Origin: an uncultured virus (IMG/VR IMGVR_UViG_3300042510_001812) | Taxonomy: Duplodnaviria > Heunggongvirae > Uroviricota > Caudoviricetes | IMG/VR virus record: IMGVR_UViG_3300042510_001812 | DNA: 64,000 nt | Direction: 5' to 3' (one strand) | Shown here: piece by piece, positions 3,890 through 49,379 of the stretch | Numbering within the stretch: position 1 is the first letter of the stretch | How the letters are laid out: each line of letters opens with the position of its first letter | The notes under the pieces: generated by a model | What the model was told of the DNA's origin: nothing | The model's input: only the letters and a program-made list of their open reading frames with translations | Databases searched by the model: none | Position numbers and translations under genes: made by a program

Positions 3890-4261
3890 ATGGATAACAC
3901 GACAAGATTCAATACCTATGTTAAAGCCCTTTCTCAGTTCGCCGCGCGCGAAGGACATTGCAATGTTCCAGCCATCCATACTGAAATTGTTGAAAATAAT
4001 GATGTCACACTGGGAGCTTGGGTTGGCTATGTTCGCCAGAGACGAAGAAAAAATCAACTTTCTGAAGAGCGCGCGACTGCCATCCAGGCTGTTTCCGGCT
4101 GGCAATGGGGTCCACTGAAGCCTGGTCCTGCTACAGATGCTGATAGAAATTATGAAATTTTGCAGATGCGCGCAGCCGGTTCTTCGCTCCGCCAAATTGC
4201 AGATAAATTTGATTTGAGTCGGCAGCGCGTCCATCAAATTGTTAAAAATATTCAGGTGTAA
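3890..4261 (+). CDS. helicase-associated (HA) domain plus sigma70-region-4-like HTH protein
   Basis: FAAREGHCNVP...LGAWV...QR...LSEER...GWQW (HA domain); SLRQIADKFDLSRQRVHQI (HTH). Confidence 0.75.
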   Translation: MDNTTRFNTYVKALSQFAAREGHCNVPAIHTEIVENNDVTLGAWVGYVRQRRRKNQLSEERATAIQAVSGWQWGPLKPGPATDADRNYEILQMRAAGSSLRQIADKFDLSRQRVHQIVKNIQV

Positions 4262-27508: not shown

Positions 27509-27660
27509 TGCTCTCCCTTTCAGTAGGTAACTAAATCATATCCGAGCCAATACCAAATTTCAACGACCCCAAGGCGGGGCTATTTCGAGTTAGCGTGCAA
27601 TTTGGAAATCTGGTATCACGGATAGTACGATTTACTTGTCCACGAGAAAAGGGGAAAGAA

Positions 27661-28336: not shown

Positions 28337-28654
28337 GTGACATCAGTAGCAGTGAGAGTAAGCGCACCACCGAGAGGCGATTTGCCTTGTACTGGCAGGC
28401 AAGATTTGTTTTATGGCAAGTACGCCGAAAGACCTGAAGCACGATTGCGCCGTGAAGAAAAAGCCAAAAAAGTTTGCGCTACTTGTTCGCAGGCGACTAC
28501 CTGCCGTGATTACGCCCGTAGTAATGGCGAAGTGTTTGGTATTTGGGGCGGAGAAACAGAAATGGAGAGATATAGCGCAGGATTTATGTTGTCAGTACCA
28601 CCCCACCTGTCACGGAGAGTTGTTACTATGAAAGAAAGATATGGGAACTTATAA
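28337..28654 (+). CDS. whiB: WhiB family transcriptional regulator
   Basis: C...AKKVCATC....C.DYA...GIWGG.TE.ER. Confidence 0.9.
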   Translation: MTSVAVRVSAPPRGDLPCTGRQDLFYGKYAERPEARLRREEKAKKVCATCSQATTCRDYARSNGEVFGIWGGETEMERYSAGFMLSVPPHLSRRVVTMKERYGNL

Positions 28655-29420: not shown

Positions 29421-31343
29421 GTGCGACTTTACCTTGACCACGACTTATTAGCCCTTGACTTTCCGTATGACCCAGCACAAGTTGCTGAAGTCAAGTCAAT
29501 AGCCGGGGCTACATGGGACAAGGTGGACAAACTTTGGAAAGCACCCGTAGCCTCAATTGACGAGGTGCGAGCATTTGCTATGAAGCATGAGTTTCAGATA
29601 ACAGACGAAGTGCTTAGGTTTACAGCCCCAAAGAGAGCGTCACGAAAAGGCGTTTATCTCAAAGGCGACTGGACTTACATCCAATTCCCTTACGACAAGG
29701 TTGTGCTCAAAGCAGTAAAGCAAATAGCAGGGGTTACTTGGGATAACAAAGAGATGGCATGGAGAGCGCCACTCACCTCAACATCTGAAGCAATTGCGTG
29801 GGCTAACTCGTTTGGGGTGCTTGTATCGCCCGAAGTACACGGTGTATCTGCCTCGATAACCAAGAAACTAGATGAACTAAAGGAAGCCTCACGCTCAACT
29901 GACGCTGATATAGAAGTGCCTTCACTACAAGGAACGTTATTGCCTTACCAAAGAGCAGGCGTGGAGTATGCGTCTAAAGCCCGTAGAAGTTTTATCGCTG
30001 ACGAGATGGGACTTGGAAAGACGATACAAGCGATAGCGACACTGGAATATTCGTCAAAAGATAGCGAAGTGTACCCAGCAGTAATTGTCTGCCCCCCTTC
30101 ACTTGTACTCAACTGGAAGTCAGAGTGGAACAGATGGTTGCCTAACAGGAGGGTTGCCGTTGTGACCAACCGTAGAGACATGCCAGAGCCCCGTTCGTAT
30201 GATGTGCTCGTTGTCGGCTACTCAAACATCTCTCACTGGGAAAAGCAACTACTTGCGCATAACTCTTATGTATTTGATGAGAGTCACTACGCAAAAAGCC
30301 CAACGGCACAACGTACTAAGTCGGCTATAAAGATGGCAAAGAGCGCACCTAAACACGGGATAGTCCTATGCCTCACTGGGACACCCGTAACGAATAGACC
30401 AGCAGAGTACGCCAGCCAACTAGACATAATCGGGAAACTGAAAGAGTTTGGTGGGTTGTGGGGATTTTATAGAAGGTATTGTTCAGCCTTCCAAGATAGG
30501 TTCGGTCAATGGAATATCAGCGGTCACTCGCACCTTGATGAACTAAACGACAGGCTTCGTGGTACTTGCTATATAAGACGAACTAAGTCGCAGGTACTTA
30601 CAGAACTCCCACCGGTTATACACAGCACCCTTGTTGTTCAGGGAACTGATGCGGGGCTCAAGGAGTATCGTAAGGCAGAACAAGACATAATAAAGTACAT
30701 AACCGACAGAGCAAAAGAGATAGCAATAGAACTCGGGGAGAGCCCGTACTCGGCAGCCGTTGTGGCGAGAATAAAAGCAGAAAGCAACGAACACCTCGTC
30801 AAACTGTCAGTACTTAGACGGCTTGCTGCGAAAGCCAAAATGCCAATGGTTGAGGAGTGGGTGCAGTCACGCATTGATGATGGCAAGAAAGTCGTAATCG
30901 CAGCGCACCATAGAGACGTTGTAGATGAACTCGCACGAAAGTTTGGCAACCTTCGCATTCAGGGCGGCATGTCGGTTGAGGAAGTGGAAGCACAAAAGGC
31001 ACGCTTTCAGAACGAACCCGTAGAGACAGCGCCCGTCATTGTGTTGTCTATTCAGGCAGCCAAGACTGGTCACACACTCACAGCCTCACAAGACATACTT
31101 TTCGTAGAACTTCCGTACACGCCAGCAGACCTAGACCAAACTTATTCACGCCTTCATCGCATTGGTCAGACTGGAAGCGTTACGACTACTTACATGCTGG
31201 TTGACGGGACTATTGACGAGGAAATCTATGCGCTCATAGAAAAGAAGCGCAAGGTAGTGAACGCTTCGGTTGAGGGGGGAGAGTTCGCAGCAGGTGGTAA
31301 CGCAACGCAGTTGGTACTTGACTTGCTCAACAGACATCGATAG
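29421..31343 (+). CDS. SNF2-family helicase with N-terminal HARP-like repeats (SMARCAL1-like)
   Basis: ADEMGLGKT, DESH, LTGTP, RLHRIGQ; two N-terminal FPYD...I.G.TWD...W.AP repeats. Confidence 0.9.
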   Translation: MRLYLDHDLLALDFPYDPAQVAEVKSIAGATWDKVDKLWKAPVASIDEVRAFAMKHEFQITDEVLRFTAPKRASRKGVYLKGDWTYIQFPYDKVVLKAVKQIAGVTWDNKEMAWRAPLTSTSEAIAWANSFGVLVSPEVHGVSASITKKLDELKEASRSTDADIEVPSLQGTLLPYQRAGVEYASKARRSFIADEMGLGKTIQAIATLEYSSKDSEVYPAVIVCPPSLVLNWKSEWNRWLPNRRVAVVTNRRDMPEPRSYDVLVVGYSNISHWEKQLLAHNSYVFDESHYAKSPTAQRTKSAIKMAKSAPKHGIVLCLTGTPVTNRPAEYASQLDIIGKLKEFGGLWGFYRRYCSAFQDRFGQWNISGHSHLDELNDRLRGTCYIRRTKSQVLTELPPVIHSTLVVQGTDAGLKEYRKAEQDIIKYITDRAKEIAIELGESPYSAAVVARIKAESNEHLVKLSVLRRLAAKAKMPMVEEWVQSRIDDGKKVVIAAHHRDVVDELARKFGNLRIQGGMSVEEVEAQKARFQNEPVETAPVIVLSIQAAKTGHTLTASQDILFVELPYTPADLDQTYSRLHRIGQTGSVTTTYMLVDGTIDEEIYALIEKKRKVVNASVEGGEFAAGGNATQLVLDLLNRHR

Positions 31344-31393
31344 CCCCGGCCTATCGTTTTAGAAATTTGGTATTTGGCTTGCTAAGCTTGCGT

Positions 31394-31610
31394 TGCCGCA
31401 AGGCACGAAGCGAAAGGGGCAAAAGAAACTAGGTATTCCTCCTGCAGGGGGCTTTATTAACGAAGTCGGCATGGCGACCGACAGGCCTAGGTTCTCCCTC
31501 TAGCCGAGAGAAGGCAAGGATACGCGAGGTGGCGTGTGTACACACGGCAGCCAAAAGGCAGTGCCCGAAAGGGACGCTTGAACCATCTCGCTAAGTCCTT
31601 GCTCTTTTTT
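31394..31610 (+). ncRNA. candidate structured non-coding RNA (~215 nt), family unknown
   Basis: Own promoter (31357-31388); multiple nested stems with GCAA/GAAA tetraloops; ends in a U tract; no convincing ORF. Confidence 0.65.
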
Positions 31611-31627
31611 CGGTTTTGTGGCGGGGC

Positions 31628-32050
31628 TTACTCGGCTTCTTTGGTTGGGACTCTGCCCATCAGTTCGTCAGCAATTAGTTTTGCGTACTTTCTGCGCAGT
31701 TTCCAGACTTTTTGGTTCATTTCAGCCATTGCGTCAGTCGTTCGTGCCTTCTTTATGCTGTCGCTGTCAAACACGCCGTACTTCTTGAACAAGATGTCGT
31801 CAATGTCATTGTTTTCTATCATTATGTCCGTAATCCAATGGCCCCGCTTGTCAATGCTAAGCAGAAGTTCGCAAAGACCTTCAAATCCGAACTCGTTATA
31901 GACACGATTGGTAACTAAGTCACAGAAATGCGCACGATACATCGTTTCTGCTTCAGCGGTGTGGCTCATAAACTCACTCAGCCATACGGCAAGCTCTTCT
32001 TTTGACGGAATATCGCCGTCTTCACTGTCAAACTCAAAGTCGTCTTCCAT
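31628..32050 (-). CDS. hypothetical acidic protein
   Basis: ORF track. Confidence 0.7.
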   Translation of the reverse strand: MEDDFEFDSEDGDIPSKEELAVWLSEFMSHTAEAETMYRAHFCDLVTNRVYNEFGFEGLCELLLSIDKRGHWITDIMIENNDIDDILFKKYGVFDSDSIKKARTTDAMAEMNQKVWKLRRKYAKLIADELMGRVPTKEAE

Positions 32051-37437: not shown

Positions 37438-37854
37438 TCACAAGCTTTCTTCAGTGTCTTTTGTCTCTTTATTTACTTCTGAATACTTGGCGTAGTGAAG
37501 CGTTGATGCTGCATACTCCGGATTTAGCGTCTTGTACCATCCGCCAATAGACTTCATGAGAACCCCGGGATTACCGGTTGCTTCGCATGTCTTTGCGGCA
37601 ATTTCCTCATACTTTGAAATAATGTCATGAAGGCGTCTTGGCTCATAGCATGTTTCTGAAGGTTTTACGTAGTACCGCAACTCTCCAAATTTTTCCTTTA
37701 CTTGGAGGATTTTGTAGTGTGGGTCAAATAGTGATAGTTCTCTGTCGCAGTCGATTACTAGCTGATACCAGCCCTCGTCAACTTGGATTACCTGCGTCCA
37801 CCCTGAAGCAATCTTCTGCTTTATCTTCTCTATCTGTGACTGCGTCTCATTCAT
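37438..37854 (-). CDS. conserved phage hypothetical protein
   Basis: GWYQLV...QVKEKFGELRYY motif. Confidence 0.7.
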   Translation of the reverse strand: MNETQSQIEKIKQKIASGWTQVIQVDEGWYQLVIDCDRELSLFDPHYKILQVKEKFGELRYYVKPSETCYEPRRLHDIISKYEEIAAKTCEATGNPGVLMKSIGGWYKTLNPEYAASTLHYAKYSEVNKETKDTEESL

Positions 37855-38004
37855 CTCGTGTTGTCTTCTCGTCCAGTATCTTGGCGCATATGTTACAGAA
37901 TACTACTCCGGCCTTTTGGTTTCCGAGGAAAGTCTGCCAGTTCTCGCACTTGTGAGGGGTTTTTGATTTAAACCAATACCAAATGTGCAGAATGTAGTCC
38001 ATGC

Positions 38005-38478
38005 TCAACCCTGCTTTGTGAAGATGTCAGCACAGCAGTATGCGCCTAGATTCATTGTCAATGTACCAAAACCAATCGGAATCGATATTTCAACATACAT
38101 GGCATTTTTATCACCGACCCCACACAGGTCGCATCCACTTGAGTCGGCCATTAGGAGTGGCAAGAAACCACTCAAGCATTCATAACAACATCCCACGCCT
38201 ATTGATGGGGCGAATATGTGCCTGAATGTCGGAGTTGTGGTTGCGAAATGGGGACAAAATTTATCAATCTTGTTTAGCAGCTTTCCCAGACTTTCTGTTC
38301 TTTTAGCAGAAAAATCAGTATGGCTTATTCCCTTGAAGCCGTGTGGTTCTAAGGTCTCTGTTGTCTCATCGAACGTTTTTAGTTGCGCTTCAAATAGTTT
38401 ACGCACGAAATCATGCTGCTCCTGTTCGTTTGCAAATTTTTTGATTTCTGGTTTTGATTTTCTGTATCTTGGTTGCAT
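38005..38478 (-). CDS. Cys-rich hypothetical protein
   Basis: AAGGAG SD; several CxxC. Confidence 0.6.
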   Translation of the reverse strand: MQPRYRKSKPEIKKFANEQEQHDFVRKLFEAQLKTFDETTETLEPHGFKGISHTDFSAKRTESLGKLLNKIDKFCPHFATTTPTFRHIFAPSIGVGCCYECLSGFLPLLMADSSGCDLCGVGDKNAMYVEISIPIGFGTLTMNLGAYCCADIFTKQG

Positions 38479-45707: not shown

Positions 45708-47537
45708 TTATTTGTCAACTTTCATGAACTCAATCACTTCGAACGGGAATACCTTGCCTCGCTTGATTTTCAATGGCCACTGACGCTGGTCACGCGCCCC
45801 TCTAAAGTGTCGAACGTCGTAAACATATGGTTCGTTAGCTGTTGGGTCTGGTTGAAGAGAAATACCAAACTCCGGCCAGCGTGACCATACGGCAGAACCA
45901 AAAGGGCGCAACTCTCTTGTGTTCAGGGTCGTCCCAAGTGGTGCGTGGTGTTCAAGCCAAAGGGCGCATCCATAAACGGTTCTAATAGTGTCTAGATATT
46001 TGGCGACCTCAACAGCAATCGCTTCCGAGGTCCTGCCGCCTGGGTCAACGAATGCTTTATACAAAGGACCCATGACCAAAATGTCGGGCTTGACTCTCTC
46101 AATCGCTTCCTCAAGAATCAATCTGTCTTCTGGCTTCAAAAGGTCCATTCCAGACGGCTTTGTTAAAACCTCTCCATAAACTCTTGCGACATGTCCACGA
46201 CGCATTGCTTGCGTAAGAATTGCAGAAGAGGCTCTTCTGATAATCCGTTCAGGGTTTTCAAGGTCAACTGTCAACGTGACTACAGGCTTCATCTGCCCAT
46301 ACGTAAAAGGATGAATGCCAGCAGCAGCACAAAGCGCAACTTGGCGCGCGAGCATCGTTTTGCCAACACCTTCGGCAGCAACAACGATTACTCTTTCTCC
46401 ACGTTCAAGAAGACCAGGAATAACCCAATCGTATGATTCATCAACTTGCTCTTCAATGAAATCATTCCATTGAACTAGTCTGCCTGGGTCCGTGATTTGT
46501 TTTGATGTAGTTGCCGAAAGAATCATCGACATTTTTGAAACCATCTGGCCAGGACTTAAATCATCTCTTCCAAATAGGTCTTGAATTTTAATCAGGGCGG
46601 AATCAAATATTGACTCCTTTTTCTCTTCAACTGGTTCATTCTCTTCTTGAATGTCATGCTCAATGTTTTCTACTTGTTCAATTTCATTTTCTTCTGGTGG
46701 TGAAAAGGCAGAAAGACTATCGAATGTTCCGCCAGATGAAAGGTGGTCAGTGATGTCTTTCGTATCTGGACAAATCCACACCTGCGCATCACAGCCAGCA
46801 GCAGTAAGAACTTTTAAAATCCTAGAAGCATGTTCTCTACCAGGAACGTCATTGTCTGCAACAATGTCTATAACCGCACCAGCCAAGGCTTCGGTGTGAA
46901 TATCGAGCCAGTGTCCTGCACCGCCAGGCATGGTGGTGGCTACATATCCAAGAGAGGTAAGTGTGTCGGCGTCTTTTTCCCCCTCAACAACCCAAATTGG
47001 AGTACCCTCCGCTTTCGCGGCAATAACAGCAGGGAGATTGTAGAGAATTTTAGGAACATCAGAAAGAGAGTATGACCACTCACCATTCTCGAGAGGTTTG
47101 CGTTGTCTGAATGTTTTTACACCATCTTGATTTACATATCTAACCTTTTGAAATAAAAGTTCACCAGATTCATTTAGGTAATCATAAGAACAGACAAATT
47201 TTAACTGCTCTTTGGTAATCGGTTTTGGCGATTGTTGCTGAACTGAAGCTTGTTTATCTTTTTTGATAATCGGTTTTTCGTAAATCGTGCTAGTTCCATT
47301 TTGAGGCATTATGTCAGCAATCGTTAGTCCGACTGCAGCACAAATTTCTCCAGCATCACAACCATTACCACGATGGCAGTGGACTAGAACTCTTCCATCA
47401 TTTCCCTCGCTGACTGAAAGAGATGGATTGTTATCGTCGTTTCTACACGGGCAACGAGCCATGAAGTTTCCACCGCTTTGCCTGACACCATCTAGTCTGT
47501 CAAGAAAGCTCTGAACGATTGGGCCTGGGGAAGTCAT
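45708..47537 (-). CDS. DNA primase/helicase (Zn finger, TOPRIM, RecA-like AAA_25)
   Basis: CPC..D..PSLSV; VVEGEKDA; ADND; AAEGVGKT. Confidence 0.9.
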   Translation of the reverse strand: MTSPGPIVQSFLDRLDGVRQSGGNFMARCPCRNDDNNPSLSVSEGNDGRVLVHCHRGNGCDAGEICAAVGLTIADIMPQNGTSTIYEKPIIKKDKQASVQQQSPKPITKEQLKFVCSYDYLNESGELLFQKVRYVNQDGVKTFRQRKPLENGEWSYSLSDVPKILYNLPAVIAAKAEGTPIWVVEGEKDADTLTSLGYVATTMPGGAGHWLDIHTEALAGAVIDIVADNDVPGREHASRILKVLTAAGCDAQVWICPDTKDITDHLSSGGTFDSLSAFSPPEENEIEQVENIEHDIQEENEPVEEKKESIFDSALIKIQDLFGRDDLSPGQMVSKMSMILSATTSKQITDPGRLVQWNDFIEEQVDESYDWVIPGLLERGERVIVVAAEGVGKTMLARQVALCAAAGIHPFTYGQMKPVVTLTVDLENPERIIRRASSAILTQAMRRGHVARVYGEVLTKPSGMDLLKPEDRLILEEAIERVKPDILVMGPLYKAFVDPGGRTSEAIAVEVAKYLDTIRTVYGCALWLEHHAPLGTTLNTRELRPFGSAVWSRWPEFGISLQPDPTANEPYVYDVRHFRGARDQRQWPLKIKRGKVFPFEVIEFMKVDK

Positions 47538-47926
47538 TGCGCTTCTCGCAGAGCCTTCTTTATTGCTGCATCCTTAAGACGATAGTTGCCCTTATACGCA
47601 AATCCATTGGCGTTTCTTCTTCCAATCCCTGGAAGGAAAATTCTTGCTTCGCGTGATAAAAGAATTCCCCTATCGCTTCTCATCATTGCGCGTTCGGCTT
47701 CTGTTTTTCCTCCCCAAATACCGATTGGTTCATGGCGAAGTGAGTACTCAAGACAGTGCTCTCTAGATGCACATGAATCGCAAAGCTCAATCGCTTCCTT
47801 TATATCCGCTCTGAATTTGAGCCACTGTTCTCTTGGTAAACCCTTTTCAATTACTGGGAACCATTTATCGACGTCGTGTCCTTTGCAATTTCCCTCTGCT
47901 GGTGGCGCATCGTGGTTTGGCAACAA
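47534..47926 (-). CDS. whiB: WhiB family transcriptional regulator
   Basis: C...WFP...CDSC....CLEYSL...GIWGGKTEAER. Confidence 0.9.
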   Translation of the reverse strand: MLPNHDAPPAEGNCKGHDVDKWFPVIEKGLPREQWLKFRADIKEAIELCDSCASREHCLEYSLRHEPIGIWGGKTEAERAMMRSDRGILLSREARIFLPGIGRRNANGFAYKGNYRLKDAAIKKALREAQ

Positions 47927-47935
47927 TTCAACTCC

Positions 47936-48358
47936 TTACGTCGGATTAGGTTTGGTTATCCTAGCGACGTCGGATGAAGAAAGAAATACCAGAGCGTGTT
48001 TTACTACAAGATTTCCTGAGATGTCCGTAGCGACAATATCGATTGCTTCTAATGGTATTTTAAACCTTGAAGCAATTGCTGCTTTCATTTTGCTTATATC
48101 AATTTCTTCTTCAACAAATTTAACATTGTCATCAATGTCTGTTGGAATGGCTCCGGCGGTAAGAGCCTTCATTTCGCCATCTTTTTCTACAGCGCGAAGA
48201 CACCATGCACAGGCTAATTTTGGGGTTGATGCAGCACGCGCACGTGTTTCAGTGTGTCCACAGGAAAGCAAGTGTCGGTATTCGACTTTTCCCCAAGCAC
48301 CCTCGCGAGTGATTTGAACCACGTCTTGGCGTGGTGCTTTGCGATGTTCAGTTGTCAC
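47936..48358 (-). CDS. hypothetical protein
   Basis: LSCGH...CAWC. Confidence 0.65.
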   Translation of the reverse strand: MTTEHRKAPRQDVVQITREGAWGKVEYRHLLSCGHTETRARAASTPKLACAWCLRAVEKDGEMKALTAGAIPTDIDDNVKFVEEEIDISKMKAAIASRFKIPLEAIDIVATDISGNLVVKHALVFLSSSDVARITKPNPT

Positions 48359-48385
48359 AACCCACCATTATGGTGGAAGAAGAAG

Positions 48386-48649
48386 TTACTTCGAGAGACG
48401 TCTGAAAAGCTTTCGCAGCCACTTCTTTGCGCCACGAGCATCAACTGATACTTGCGCTGGAATGCTGTCGATTAACTTCTCAATTTTGTCTGCATGCTCT
48501 GCTACTTGCTTCGCTGCAATTTCTTCAATGAAGTCTTCTGCTTTTGCAAAAGTGCTTTTTGGAGCAGCCTTCTTCGCAGGAGCCTTTTTAGCTGGCGCCT
48601 TTTTAGCAGGAGCTTTCTTTGCTGTTGTCTTTTTCTTTGCTGTTGCCAT
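48386..48649 (-). CDS. histone H1-like (AKKAP repeat) protein
   Basis: Tandem AKKAP repeats. Confidence 0.65.
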   Translation of the reverse strand: MATAKKKTTAKKAPAKKAPAKKAPAKKAAPKSTFAKAEDFIEEIAAKQVAEHADKIEKLIDSIPAQVSVDARGAKKWLRKLFRRLSK

Positions 48650-48731
48650 GTCCTTGACTTTATCAAACCATTTGCCCCCGTAGTGGAACCACCTCCCCCG
48701 TTGGTGGCAGGGTTGGACCTAGGCTGTTCGT

Positions 48732-49379
48732 GTGGAAGGCTCTTATGACAACGATTATAGTAAAATTGCTCTTGCTATAACTGCCGCCCAATTAGCAAAA
48801 TCTACGAGCGTAAAAGAATTTGGAATTGGTGAGGATTTATCAATTAATTTCTTTGGCTGGGAAGAGGACAGATTGGCCATCGTCTGCCAGATGAGGCAGG
48901 ACATGATGAAGATTGACCCAGAAGAGCGTTTGGCGCGCTGTACGGAGCTCTGTGCTGTTCTGAGGCGATACTGGGGCGTCTCGTCCATAACAATGGTTGC
49001 TGAGGGCTACTGCTCTGCAAACATGACTGAGACAGAGGGGTTATCCCTATCCGATGCGTTTCTTGATGCCTCAAAACCGGTAAAAGAGTGCATCACTGTA
49101 ACCAACGTAACCTTGGATGAAAAGGCTGTTTCTGACGGTGGTTTTGTGACGACGATTATTGCCGTTCCTTATGCCTACGAGCTAGGAAGGACGCTGAAGT
49201 GGTTTGACACCCTCATTTACACGAATGGAGGGGGAAAGAACTTCAGGAACTCCAAATACCCTCAGTCCATGAGGCGAGCTTTAAAGAATAAGGTTGTAGA
49301 TGACCTGCCAGACGAAGCGTACGAGGAGCTAATAGGTCTTATTAATTCAAATGGATTTCATATACAGGAATTTTATTAA
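48732..49379 (+). CDS. hypothetical protein
   Basis: ORF track. Confidence 0.7.
   Translation: MEGSYDNDYSKIALAITAAQLAKSTSVKEFGIGEDLSINFFGWEEDRLAIVCQMRQDMMKIDPEERLARCTELCAVLRRYWGVSSITMVAEGYCSANMTETEGLSLSDAFLDASKPVKECITVTNVTLDEKAVSDGGFVTTIIAVPYAYELGRTLKWFDTLIYTNGGGKNFRNSKYPQSMRRALKNKVVDDLPDEAYEELIGLINSNGFHIQEFY

What the first reader, a model, noticed from the sequence alone, without database searches (positions are those of the whole stretch)
31357..31610. A promoter copy drives a ~215-nt highly structured candidate ncRNA instead of a gene
Seen: plus-strand motif (31357-31374), N8, TAAGCT, then hairpin TGCC-GCAA-GGCA. Domain 1 is closed by AGAAACTAGG/CCTAGGTTCT (31424-31495) and encloses CCTCC-TGCA-GGGGG and GTCGG/CCGAC hairpins. 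Domain 2 is closed by GCAAGGA/TCCTTGC and GCGAGGTGG/CCATCTCGC (31514-31602) and encloses CGTGT-GTAC-ACACG, GCC-AAAA-GGC and CCC-GAAA-GGG. A U tract follows. An SD-like AAAGGGG has no start codon after it. I do not recognise the family. Inference: an early phage RNA (decoy, antitoxin mimic, sponge or ribozyme).
Basis: partly seen in the sequence, partly recalled or inferred. Interest (0 to 1): 0.8.

Follow-up and report, generated by a model that had tools for sequence, protein, structure and literature searches.

The report
Orphan folded RNA in phage cassette
A large uncultured lake phage carries, behind one copy of its repeated early promoter, a tightly folded RNA gene of about 215 letters where its relatives carry small protein genes; a distantly related phage group keeps the same RNA shape, but what the RNA does is still a guess.

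Summary
Window 31358-31372 is one of 31 copies of a promoter-like motif. 30 of the 31 lead into an ORF; this copy does not. It leads into about 215 nt that fold far better than shuffles (z -4.58) and end in a U tract.

In 56 related phage loci the same slot holds small protein genes or is empty, and none holds this stretch.

A homolog lies in a second group of WhiB-encoding phages: six contigs, identical there, 77% identity over 178 nt. It also sits behind that group's own repeated promoter-like motif. Of 43 shared base pairs, 9 changed on both sides and none broke. Column shuffles gave consensus energy z -6.1, and 9 of 1000 reached 9 such pairs.

Substitutions show no codon rhythm. Domain 2 keeps a GAAA loop and an 11-nt-receptor-like internal loop. 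Nothing in Rfam matches.

Two more lineages are known only from read-through ORF calls.

Verdict: a real, accessory, horizontally shared structured ncRNA of a new family. Its function is inferred only. There is no transcript evidence. This scan flagged the same stretch before on near-identical DNA.

The parts
31342..31348 (+). Left AGCCCCG arm bracketing the cassette, just after the helicase stop codon at 31341-31343
   Evidence: AGCCCCG occurs 57 times in the window against 4.1 expected, mostly as inverted pairs next to promoter copies. The pair 31342(+)/31622(-) encloses this cassette.
31358..31372 (+). Copy of the repeated promoter-like motif (-35 region); 1 mismatch to TTTGGAAATTTGGTA
   Evidence: 31 copies in the window against 0.17 expected. 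30 of the 31 lead into an ORF.
31383..31388 (+). -10-like hexamer TAAGCT (TAnnnT), 10 nt after GGTA as in the other copies. The inferred start of the RNA is near 31395.
   Evidence: Alignment by eye of the copies printed. The TSS is inferred, not measured.
31396..31407 (+). Leader hairpin TGCC-GCAA-GGCA, shared with the protein-coding cassettes of relatives
   Evidence: blastn finds only query positions 3-66 (promoter plus this hairpin) in relatives.
31413..31419 (+). SD-like AAAGGGG relic of the cassette leader with no start codon after it. In the MFE fold it pairs with the linker at about 31496-31500.
   Evidence: Relatives have GAAAGGGGG plus ATG/GTG at this place.
31424..31495 (+). Domain 1. 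The closing helix 31424-31433/31486-31495 encloses hairpin CCUCC-UGCA-GGGGG (31438-31451), a 13-nt single strand CUUUAUUAACGAA (31452-31464), and hairpin GUCGG-CAUGGCGA-CCGAC (31465-31482).
   Evidence: The closing helix and the GUCGG/CCGAC helix each carry 3 pairs changed on both sides against L058. The CCUCC hairpin and the 8-nt loop are invariant.
31496..31513 (+). Variable linker between the domains
   Evidence: Poorly conserved in alignment A3. Lineage-specific pairings appear.
31514..31602 (+). Domain 2, a four-way junction. Outer helix 31514-31520/31596-31602; receptor-like internal loop UAC (31521-31523) / UAAG (31592-31595); helix 31524-31532/31583-31591; hairpins at 31533-31546 and 31550-31559; GAAA-capped hairpin at 31564-31573.
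   Evidence: The outer helix has 3 double and 2 single compensatory changes. The inner helices, the GAAA loop and the receptor are conserved. The receptor configuration occurs once in 2 x 160,449 nt.
31603..31610 (+). U tract (TCTTTTTT) after the outer helix of domain 2; the likely 3' end in this lineage
   Evidence: It is absent after the L058 copy. The simple terminator scan did not flag it because the enclosed loop is large.
31622..31628 (-). Right AGCCCCG arm (CGGGGCT on the plus strand), overlapping the end of the convergent 140-aa ORF 31628-32050(-)
   Evidence: The flank shared with relatives resumes at TGTGGCGGGG.

Best explanation
Window 31355-31611 is a self-contained non-coding RNA gene. 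One copy of the phage's repeated host-type promoter most likely starts a transcript near 31395. The transcript would run about 215 nt to the U tract at 31603-31610.

The conserved core is about 31424-31602, roughly 180 nt, and folds into two multi-helix domains. Domain 2 is a four-way junction. One arm ends in a GAAA tetraloop and the stem carries an 11-nt-receptor-like internal loop, which points to a compact, tertiary-stabilised fold.

The unit sits in a swappable cassette slot, bracketed by AGCCCCG/CGGGGCT arms, between an SNF2 helicase gene and a convergent gene. Related phages hold small protein genes or nothing in that slot. It is therefore an accessory payload, not a core function.

The same RNA has been exchanged with, or inherited alongside, a second group of WhiB-encoding lake phages and kept under selection for its shape.

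Inferred function: a trans-acting early RNA that works through its three-dimensional shape. It would bind a host or phage protein, or less likely a small ligand, as part of host takeover or counter-defence.

Shown: the sequence features, the absence of an ORF, the variability of the slot, and conservation of the structure with compensatory changes. Inferred: transcription, its timing, the RNA ends, the tertiary contact and the binding role.

The 0.65 is for the whole statement. I put the existence of a selected structured RNA at about 0.85 and the binding/decoy role at about 0.35.
For: 1. Promoter context. 31 motif copies in the window against 0.17 expected. 30 of 31 lead into an ORF, and only this one does not.

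2. Fold. Plus strand z -4.58, 0 of 200 shuffles as good. Minus strand z -2.37.

3. Slot variability. In 56 loci that encode the neighbouring helicase at 52-99% identity, blastn finds only the first ~66 nt of the query, i.e. promoter and leader hairpin. The slots I read hold one or two small ORFs (L002-L005, L008-L016, L024-L029, L036-L043, L056) or nothing (L006, L007, L017). The covariance model finds no copy in any of the 56 loci, nor in five whole relatives' records.

4. Homolog elsewhere. Six contigs L058-L063 are identical in this stretch. Within the 8.1-kb locus L058, only 4000-4174 matches anything in the 160-kb genome: 77% over 178 nt, equal to window 31432-31605. That copy lies between two copies of a different repeated promoter-like motif, which occurs 20 times in 8.1 kb against 0.07 expected.

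5. Structure conservation. 43 consensus pairs: 9 changed on both sides, 2 on one side, 0 broken. Partner-slid controls gave 0-2 double changes. Column shuffles gave consensus MFE -56.85 against -31.0 +/- 4.2, with 0 of 1000 as low; double changes averaged 3.3 +/- 1.9, with 9 of 1000 reaching 9.

6. Strand. Folded alone, L058 gives z -3.32 on the plus strand and z -0.85 on the minus strand. The plus strand is also favoured in the consensus fold, -56.85 against -43.45.

7. Not coding. Substitutions per codon position are about 11/11/10 in every frame of the 116-nt ungapped block. A 1-nt indel sits inside domain 2.

8. Tertiary motif. The window has GCUAAG/UACGC and L058 has GCUAAG/UAUGC. [quoted passage not shown] This configuration occurs once in both strands of the genome, with the GAAA hairpin inside it.

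9. Further lineages, seen only as ORF calls that read through the element. P0017 (4 contigs) has flanks matching this same slot. All 37 of the 43 pairs it covers stay compatible with pairing, and one forced change turns a G-C into a G.U. P0001/P0012 (7 + 2 contigs) match 28 of 31 residues of the L058 reading of domain 2 and run into a downstream gene with no BLASTP similarity to L058's.
Against: 1. No transcript evidence. No RNA run is listed among the holders, so transcription, RNA ends and timing are inferred.

2. Only two distinct DNA sequences of the element could be aligned, so covariation rests on one pairwise comparison.

3. The blunter test was weak. Each sequence's own MFE structure was transferred to the other. 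That gave 13 of 27 changed pairs kept (p about 0.22) and 14 of 24 kept (p about 0.02). Many single-sequence MFE pairs are lineage-specific.

4. The RNAalifold structure was chosen to fit both sequences, which favours the pair counts.

5. The U tract is absent in the second group, and the 5' leaders differ, so the transcript ends are not conserved.

6. The closest relatives lack the element, and an allele with a protein-coding cassette occurs in a lake sample that also holds this one (table 7). So it is dispensable.

7. No shared neighbour gene or partner protein was found. The one candidate ORF also occurs in a relative that lacks the RNA.

8. Gene callers did call ORFs across the element in three other lineages (L058's 63 aa; P0001; P0017).
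Confidence: 0.65

Rival explanations
1. It is a structured RNA gene, but it acts as a small-ligand aptamer or as a ribozyme rather than as a binder or decoy of a macromolecule.
For: A multi-helix junction, an invariant internal loop, and single-stranded blocks kept in both lineages: the 13-nt joiner, the 8-nt loop CAUGGCGA, and YUGAA at the junction. A GAAA/receptor pair. These are properties that Weinberg et al. 2017 list as typical of riboswitches and ribozymes (PMC5737381, passages).
Against: In the window there is no downstream gene on the same strand to regulate. In L058 a promoter-like copy stands between the element and the next gene. No known riboswitch or ribozyme class in Rfam matches either copy, even at E up to 10. 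In the window a U tract follows directly, which Weinberg et al. consider at odds with self-cleavage.
Confidence: 0.12
2. It is a cis-acting element, not a trans-acting product. It could be a terminator or insulator between convergent genes, an RNA-stability module, or a DNA-level recombination or replication site of the cassette system.
For: It lies between convergent genes and, in the window, ends in a helix plus U tract. It is bracketed by AGCCCCG arms, which mark cassette borders all over the early region. Gains and losses in relatives happen exactly at these borders.
Against: The second group has no U tract and no convergent gene. Empty-slot relatives manage without it. About 180 nt with 8 helices and a tertiary motif is far more than a terminator needs. 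G.U pairs and the plus/minus asymmetry of folding argue for RNA of one strand, not for a DNA cruciform.
Confidence: 0.1
3. It is a non-functional leftover: a recombination scar or decaying fragment that happens to fold well and was copied between phages recently.
For: It is absent from the closest relatives. The SD-like leader without a start codon looks like a broken protein cassette. Few lineages are known. The single-sequence transfer test of covariation was weak.
Against: Roughly one aligned position in three to four differs between the two DNA lineages: 68% identity over the 193 aligned columns of A3, 77% over the 178-nt blastn match. Despite that, 0 of 43 consensus pairs are broken and 9 are doubly compensated. 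It is the only homologous stretch in an otherwise unrelated 8-kb neighbourhood. In the P0017 lineage the reading across the element is better kept than its flanks: 44 of 48 residues against about 60% (my count). Both copies sit in register behind a promoter-like motif.
Confidence: 0.07
4. It encodes a small protein: the frame reading GIPPAGGF..., which is open for 63 aa in L058 and 141 aa in P0017.
For: ORFs were called over it in three lineages. That frame keeps GIPPAGGF.N..GMAT.RP between the window and L058. A 23-nt stretch of it equals part of a membrane-protein gene in a Nitrospirota MAG.
Against: In the window this frame has two stops and no start codon behind the SD-like run. In this frame, 15 changed codons are non-synonymous and 2 synonymous, and substitutions fall 11/11/10 on the three codon positions. 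A 1-nt indel shifts the frame inside domain 2. The L058 ORF has no hit beyond read-through calls among 5.8 billion and 1.84 billion proteins. The MAG match covers only the hairpin: 15.6 bits, model positions 17-68.
Confidence: 0.04

Closest known systems
Orphan complex-fold bacterial RNA motifs followed by intrinsic terminators (DUF3800-I, drum, FuFi-1, skipping-rope; Weinberg et al. 2017, PMC5737381, passages read)
   Same: A multi-helix RNA with highly conserved nucleotides. It is not in a 5' UTR. In the window it is followed by a helix plus U tract. Its function is unknown, with 'sophisticated biochemical function' suspected.
   Different: No sequence or structure match. The best Rfam hit is DUF3800-VII at 16.8 bits against a gathering score of 36.2 (E 1.8), for the window copy only. 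The genome has no DUF3800 gene, and no protein is associated with the RNA across lineages. The RNA sits in a phage promoter cassette.
PeSL cassettes (promoter-early stem-loops) of T4-type phages (Arbiol et al. 2010, PMC2839356, abstract read; Comeau et al. 2014, PMC4122927, search listing only)
   Same: Many copies of one sigma70-like promoter plus stem-loops flank small non-essential genes. Insertions, deletions and replacements between close relatives happen at these units.
   Different: A different phage group (WhiB-encoding, presumably infecting Actinobacteria) and different motifs. Promoter and terminator activity were not tested here. The payload of this cassette is an RNA rather than an ORF.
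Abundant early non-coding RNAs from the Pleft promoter of Cluster A mycobacteriophages (L5, D29, StarStuff; PMC5712189, abstract and passages read)
   Same: A phage of Actinobacteria, an early-promoter-driven stable transcript without a conserved ORF, and no known function. That paper reports toxicity to the host.
   Different: No homology: the best model score on the D29 right end is 3.1 bits. Those RNAs come from a ~500-bp region at the genome end that is shared across Cluster A. This one is an optional cassette.
GAAA tetraloop / 11-nt receptor modules (canonical CCUAAG/UAUGG; bioRxiv 10.1101/2024.03.11.584472, passages read). That they occur in group I and II introns and in RNase P RNA is recalled, not checked.
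   Same: A GAAA-capped hairpin and an internal loop that matches the receptor except for a flipped closing pair. The window also has the U9C variant that was studied in that paper.
   Different: No other intron or RNase P features, and no Rfam match. Docking was not tested.
phi29 pRNA
   Same: A phage RNA of about 170 nt made from an early promoter. It has two domains and acts through its shape.
   Different: As I recall it, pRNA is an essential part of the packaging motor and is kept by all relatives. This RNA is missing from the closest relatives.

Membership tests
Rfam DUF3800-VII (RF02967) | Covariance-model score at or above the gathering score of 36.2 bits | tested here: not met
   16.8 bits, E 1.8, for the window copy. 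The L058 copy gives no hit at E up to 10.
Rfam DUF3800-VII (RF02967) | Association with a gene encoding a DUF3800 domain | tested here: not met
   PF12686 gives no match at E up to 0.1 in the 160,449-bp genome; the controls ring in 7 of 14 genomes.
Any Rfam 15 family (4227 models) | A match at the family's gathering score | tested here: not met
   The whole window gives only 4 tRNAs, none in this region.
tRNA / tmRNA | Recognised by ARAGORN or by the Rfam tRNA model | tested here: not met
   4 tRNA genes elsewhere in the window, none at 31350-31620.
PeSL-like promoter/stem-loop cassette system | Many copies of one sigma70-like promoter in front of small genes | tested here: met
   31 copies against 0.17 expected; 30 lead into ORFs. 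Promoter activity was not measured.
PeSL-like promoter/stem-loop cassette system | Stem-loops next to the promoters that terminate transcription | tested here: inconclusive
   There are 57 AGCCCCG copies, mostly as inverted pairs 30-50 nt apart beside promoter copies. Whether they terminate was not tested.
PeSL-like promoter/stem-loop cassette system | Gene gain, loss and replacement between close relatives at the cassette borders | tested here: met
   At 93-98% helicase identity the slot holds ORF A, ORF B or nothing (both ORFs in tandem at 87%); in this genome it holds the RNA. The flanks resume at the AGCCCCG/CGGGGCT arms.
GAAA tetraloop / 11-nt receptor tertiary module | A GAAA loop closing a helix, conserved among homologs | tested here: met
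   CCC-GAAA-GGG is present in the window and in L058. The P0017 and P0001 readings (R-K-G) are compatible with it.
GAAA tetraloop / 11-nt receptor tertiary module | The receptor internal loop CCUAAG/UAUGG | tested here: met
   L058 has GCUAAG/UAUGC, with the closing pair flipped. The window has GCUAAG/UACGC, i.e. also U9C, a variant studied in the paper cited. The configuration is unique in both strands of the genome.
GAAA tetraloop / 11-nt receptor tertiary module | The loop actually docks into the receptor | not testable with these tools
   This needs chemical probing or a solved structure.
Cluster A mycobacteriophage Pleft ncRNA | Sequence or structure homology to the right-end transcribed region | tested here: not met
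   Model R1 on D29 47500-49127 scores at best 3.1 bits, E 0.35. blastn of the element against 50,697 phage records gives no match.
Intrinsic (Rho-independent) terminator at the 3' end | A G+C-rich helix directly followed by a U tract, conserved in the family | tested here: not met
   It is present in the window (31596-31610), and the P0017 reading is compatible with it. It is absent in L058.

The most novel reading that the evidence does not exclude
Phage early-gene cassettes can carry RNAs as interchangeable payloads alongside small proteins. This one would be an RNA-based counter-defence or takeover factor with a compact tertiary fold. It could be an aptamer-like sponge for a host immune signalling nucleotide, or a shape decoy for a host RNA-binding or RNA-cutting defence protein. 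It would be passed between distantly related lake phages that presumably infect Actinobacteria.
Probability: 0.12. Interest if true: 0.85.

Novelty: new variant of a known kind. Interest (0 to 1): 0.6.

Why it matters
Accessory early genes of phages are where host-takeover and anti-defence functions are found, and they are almost always read as small proteins. Here one slot is filled in some phages by a protein gene and in others by a shape-conserved RNA that is also found in a second phage group. This suggests that structured RNAs belong to the same exchangeable pool and are missed by protein-centred annotation.

The RNA is small, about 180 nt. It has a recognisable tetraloop-receptor module and invariant loops, so it suits probing, structure determination and pull-downs.

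It also gives a concrete handle on the biology of large uncultured lake phages; their WhiB genes suggest, but do not show, Actinobacteria as hosts.

Tried and rejected
**Pattern scans that found nothing new**
- A 24-nt exact stretch of domain 2 in viral contigs: 0 hits.
- A tetraloop/receptor gapped pattern: 0 hits. It was too strict, because L058 has AGATATG where I required GGATAYG.
- Two blocks shared by both lineages: only the same six contigs.
- A loop-only pattern: 20 stretches. 6 were the known contigs. The other 14 scored nothing with the model.
- The gene upstream of the L058 copy: only the same six contigs.

**Metagenome scan.** The single 'relative', L081, is spurious. The larger collection was therefore not really searched.

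**Genome-contig scan.** One hit, L088, lies inside a coding gene of a Nitrospirota MAG. It matches only the hairpin and I rejected it as a homolog.

**False hits.** L064-L068 are coding regions of an unrelated protein.

**Phage record collection.**
- blastn of the element and of 8 kb around it: no match.
- tblastn of P0001: no match.

**Relatives' whole records.** DNA and model searches of G001-G004, G005 and G011 gave nothing. The best was 9.2 bits, E 0.93.

**Sequencing runs.**
- No RNA holder is listed.
- The four laid DNA runs showed no variant inside the element, so there was no population variation to use.

**Partner protein by co-occurrence.**
- G000 ORFs were compared with five group-2 contigs and with the RNA-less relative G001.
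- One 53-aa ORF (window 37847-38008, minus strand) fitted the pattern.
- It also occurs in RNA-less G004, so I rejected it.

**Other searches**
- The small proteins that fill the slot in relatives have no Pfam family and only weak PHROG hits.
- The minus-strand ORF of L058 has no relatives.

**Literature.** Searches for a described family (listings only) turned up none. That is weak evidence that it is not in print.
Full report
**What the window is.** The window is part of a 160,449-bp virus record with direct terminal repeats. It encodes a WhiB-like regulator at 28337-28654, an SNF2-type helicase at 29421-31343, a DUF932 protein, a primase/helicase, a class II ribonucleotide reductase and an HK97-type capsid protein, plus four tRNAs. 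The exact stretch occurs in contigs of 20 lake or freshwater DNA runs. WhiB suggests an actinobacterial host; that is an inference.

**The observation.**
- The motif TTTGGAAATTTGGTA occurs 31 times in the window at up to 2 mismatches, against 0.17 expected. 29 copies are on the minus strand between 7.6 and 36 kb; 2 are on the plus strand, at 27601 and 31358.
- Each copy is followed after 10 nt by a TAnnnT hexamer (my reading).
- 28 of 31 copies are followed within 140 nt by an SD-like run, a start codon and an ORF of at least 40 aa. Two more have an ATG 37 nt from the motif start, with ORFs of 81 and 97 aa. The copy at 31358 is the only one without a gene.
- The RNA that this copy would make folds at -96.8 kcal/mol. 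That is z -4.58, with 0 of 200 shuffles as good. The opposite strand gives z -2.37.

**The slot is a swappable cassette.** The helicase has relatives in 56 IMG/VR loci at 52-99% identity.
- blastn of window 31340-31625 against these loci finds only query positions 3-66, the promoter and leader hairpin. Nothing of the structured part matches.
- I read the slot in the 18 closest loci. 15 hold small ORFs behind a promoter copy or variant, the leader hairpin and the SD GAAAGGGGG: 11 hold a 58-61-aa ORF, 2 a ~75-aa ORF, and 2 hold both. Three loci (L006, L007, L017) have an empty slot.
- More distant loci hold these or yet another small ORF.
- None of these small proteins has a Pfam family.
- The flanks shared with the window resume at AGCCCCG on the left and CGGGGCT on the right. 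That heptamer occurs 57 times in the window against 4.1 expected, mostly as inverted pairs beside promoter copies.
- This is the logic of the PeSL cassettes of T4-type phages (PMC2839356, abstract), here with other motifs.
- One lake contig joins the terminator of the ORF cassette to the right flank at 31617. So the ORF and RNA alleles coexist in nature (table 7).

**Homologs.**
- Exact and gapped DNA patterns failed at first.
I gave the stop-free pseudo-translation of 31433-31591 to the search for related loci, which scans six degenerate patterns at once.
- That search found six contigs, L058-L063 (20-69 kb, 30-41% complete), identical in this stretch. It also returned five false hits in a coding gene.
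- These phages also encode WhiB. They share a minority of genes with the window phage at 25-89% identity. Their fragments hold no homolog of the helicase.
- Within the 8.1-kb locus L058, the only similarity to the whole 160-kb genome is L058:4000-4174 against window 31432-31605: 77% over 178 nt. This holds for blastn and tblastx.
- In L058 the element lies between two copies of that group's own repeated motif, GGGAAYGTAAAATGAT. The motif occurs 20 times in 8.1 kb against 0.07 expected, all on the same strand. There is no U tract after the element.
- There is one copy per genome in both groups.

**Structure conservation.**
- RNAalifold on the two sequences gives 43 pairs in 8 helices. 9 pairs changed on both sides, 2 on one side, and none is broken.
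- The double changes fall three each in three helices: the domain-1 closing helix, the GUCGG/CCGAC helix (AGUGG/CCACU in L058), and the domain-2 outer helix (GCAAGGA/UCCUUGC against ACGGAGA/UCUCUGU).
- The other five helices are invariant and say nothing either way.
- Sliding the 3' partners by 1-3 columns leaves 0-2 double changes and 38-47% of cells paired.
- I shuffled alignment columns within conservation classes. The consensus energy is -56.85 against -31.0 +/- 4.2 (z -6.1, 0 of 1000 as low). Double changes are 9 against 3.3 +/- 1.9 (9 of 1000 reach 9).
- A blunter test transferred each sequence's own MFE structure to the other. It was weak: 13 of 27 changed pairs kept (p about 0.22) and 14 of 24 kept (p about 0.02). 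Many single-sequence pairs, such as the U tract paired with the purine-rich linker, are lineage-specific.
- The plus strand is favoured. L058 gives z -3.32 on the plus strand and -0.85 on the minus strand. The consensus energy is -56.85 against -43.45.

**Not coding.**
- The window has stops in all six frames.
- In the 116-nt ungapped block, substitutions fall about 11/11/10 on the three codon positions in every frame, with 2-6 synonymous against 13-16 non-synonymous codon changes.
- A 1-nt indel lies inside domain 2.

**Tertiary motif.**
- The internal loop between the two stacked helices of domain 2 reads GCUAAG/UACGC in the window and GCUAAG/UAUGC in L058.
- The canonical 11-nt GAAA-tetraloop receptor is CCUAAG/UAUGG. 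[quoted passage not shown]
- A GAAA-capped hairpin is conserved in the same junction.
- I searched both strands of the genome for UAYG...CUAAG with three flanking pairs on each side. It occurs once, here, with the GAAA hairpin inside. Docking itself is untested.

**Two more lineages, seen only through gene calls.**
- The 63-aa ORF that L058 happens to have across the element found P0001 and P0012 (105 aa; 7 + 2 contigs). These read through domain 2, matching 28 of 31 residues of the L058 reading. They continue through a TAYAAY-type motif into a 63-aa gene with no BLASTP similarity to the gene downstream in L058.
- A search without a word index found P0017 (141 aa, 4 contigs). Its ends align to the window's helicase end and to the antisense of the convergent gene, so it comes from the same slot in a more distant helicase-group phage.
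- Across the element, P0017 matches the window reading in 44 of 48 residues (my count). It is window-like in domain 1 and L058-like in the middle of domain 2.
- All 37 of the 43 pairs that P0017 covers remain compatible with pairing. One forced change turns a G-C into a G.U.
- The DNA of these contigs could not be fetched.

**Comparison with known families.**
- At gathering score, Rfam finds only the tRNAs in the window.
- At E up to 10, the window copy gives DUF3800-VII at 16.8 bits (gathering 36.2, E 1.8). The L058 copy gives nothing.
- The genome has no DUF3800 gene.
- The model scores 3.1 bits on the right end of mycobacteriophage D29, where Cluster A phages make abundant early non-coding RNAs.
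- So this is a member of no described family that I could test.
- By properties it resembles the orphan complex-fold RNAs with 3' terminators of Weinberg et al. 2017. By context it resembles the early phage non-coding RNAs of actinophages and the payloads of PeSL-type cassettes.

**Mechanism.**
- Shown: a promoter-like copy with no ORF behind it; a fold far better than chance; structure kept through compensatory change in two DNA lineages and compatible in two more; and neighbours that differ between lineages.
- Inferred: early transcription from about 31395; an end at the U tract in this lineage; a compact fold locked by the tetraloop-receptor contact; and action in trans by binding a protein, as part of host takeover or counter-defence.
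- The accessory, exchangeable nature of the cassette argues against a core role such as packaging or replication.
- No partner gene emerged. The one ORF shared with group 2 but missing from the RNA-less relative G001 also occurs in RNA-less G004.

**Limits.**
- There are no RNA data.
- Only two alignable DNA sequences exist, and the four laid runs showed no variation inside the element.
- The supplements of the cited papers were not read.
- This scan flagged the same stretch twice before on near-identical DNA. I used those notes as leads and re-derived the results here.

Noticed in passing
window 1900-36200 (e.g. 12111/12143, 15867/15899, 31342/31622): The heptamer AGCCCCG occurs 57 times against 4.1 expected. 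Most copies form inverted pairs 30-50 nt apart, next to the promoter copies, like stem-loops that frame each small early gene.
   Followed up: partly
window 7685-36061: An array of 31 copies of TTTGGAAATTTGGTA, each followed 10 nt later by TAnnnT, in front of small genes. The usual SD is GAAAGGGG. Two copies (14713 and 35521) have an ATG only 37 nt from the motif start, which may mean leaderless or near-leaderless transcripts.
   Followed up: partly
L058 1-8138: The second phage group has its own repeated promoter-like motif, GGGAAYGTAAAATGAT (20 copies in 8.1 kb, all on one strand), in front of small genes. This is a parallel cassette architecture built on different words.
   Followed up: partly
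L002 6011-6193; L008 6008-6232; L016 2951-3148 and 3178-3405; L037 1187-1414: Three unrelated families of small proteins (about 60-76 aa, acidic or Cys-rich) occupy the same slot in relatives, singly or in tandem. None has a Pfam family.
   Followed up: partly
L088 2966-3023 (Nitrospirota MAG contig): A 23-24-nt exact match to the CCUCC-UGCA-GGGGG hairpin region lies inside a membrane-protein gene. There it encodes GIPPAGGF, which I recall as a motif of NADH dehydrogenase / antiporter subunits; that was not checked. I read the match as chance.
   Followed up: yes
window 37847-38008 (-): A 53-aa ORF squeezed between two larger genes. It is 67% identical to an ORF in the second phage group and 71% identical to one in relative G004. 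It is absent from the close relative G001. This looks like another mobile small gene.
   Followed up: partly
window 31617 (run X19): One lake contig joins the terminator sequence of the ORF-type cassette to the right flank. So the RNA allele and a protein allele of the slot coexist in one sample.
   Followed up: no
L058 3946-3960 and about 4060-4075: In the second group, the 5' leader (CACAGGUGG) is perfectly complementary to the linker between the two domains (CCACCUGUG). This closes domain 1 with a long helix. In the window, the weaker equivalent uses the SD-like AGGGG.
   Followed up: partly
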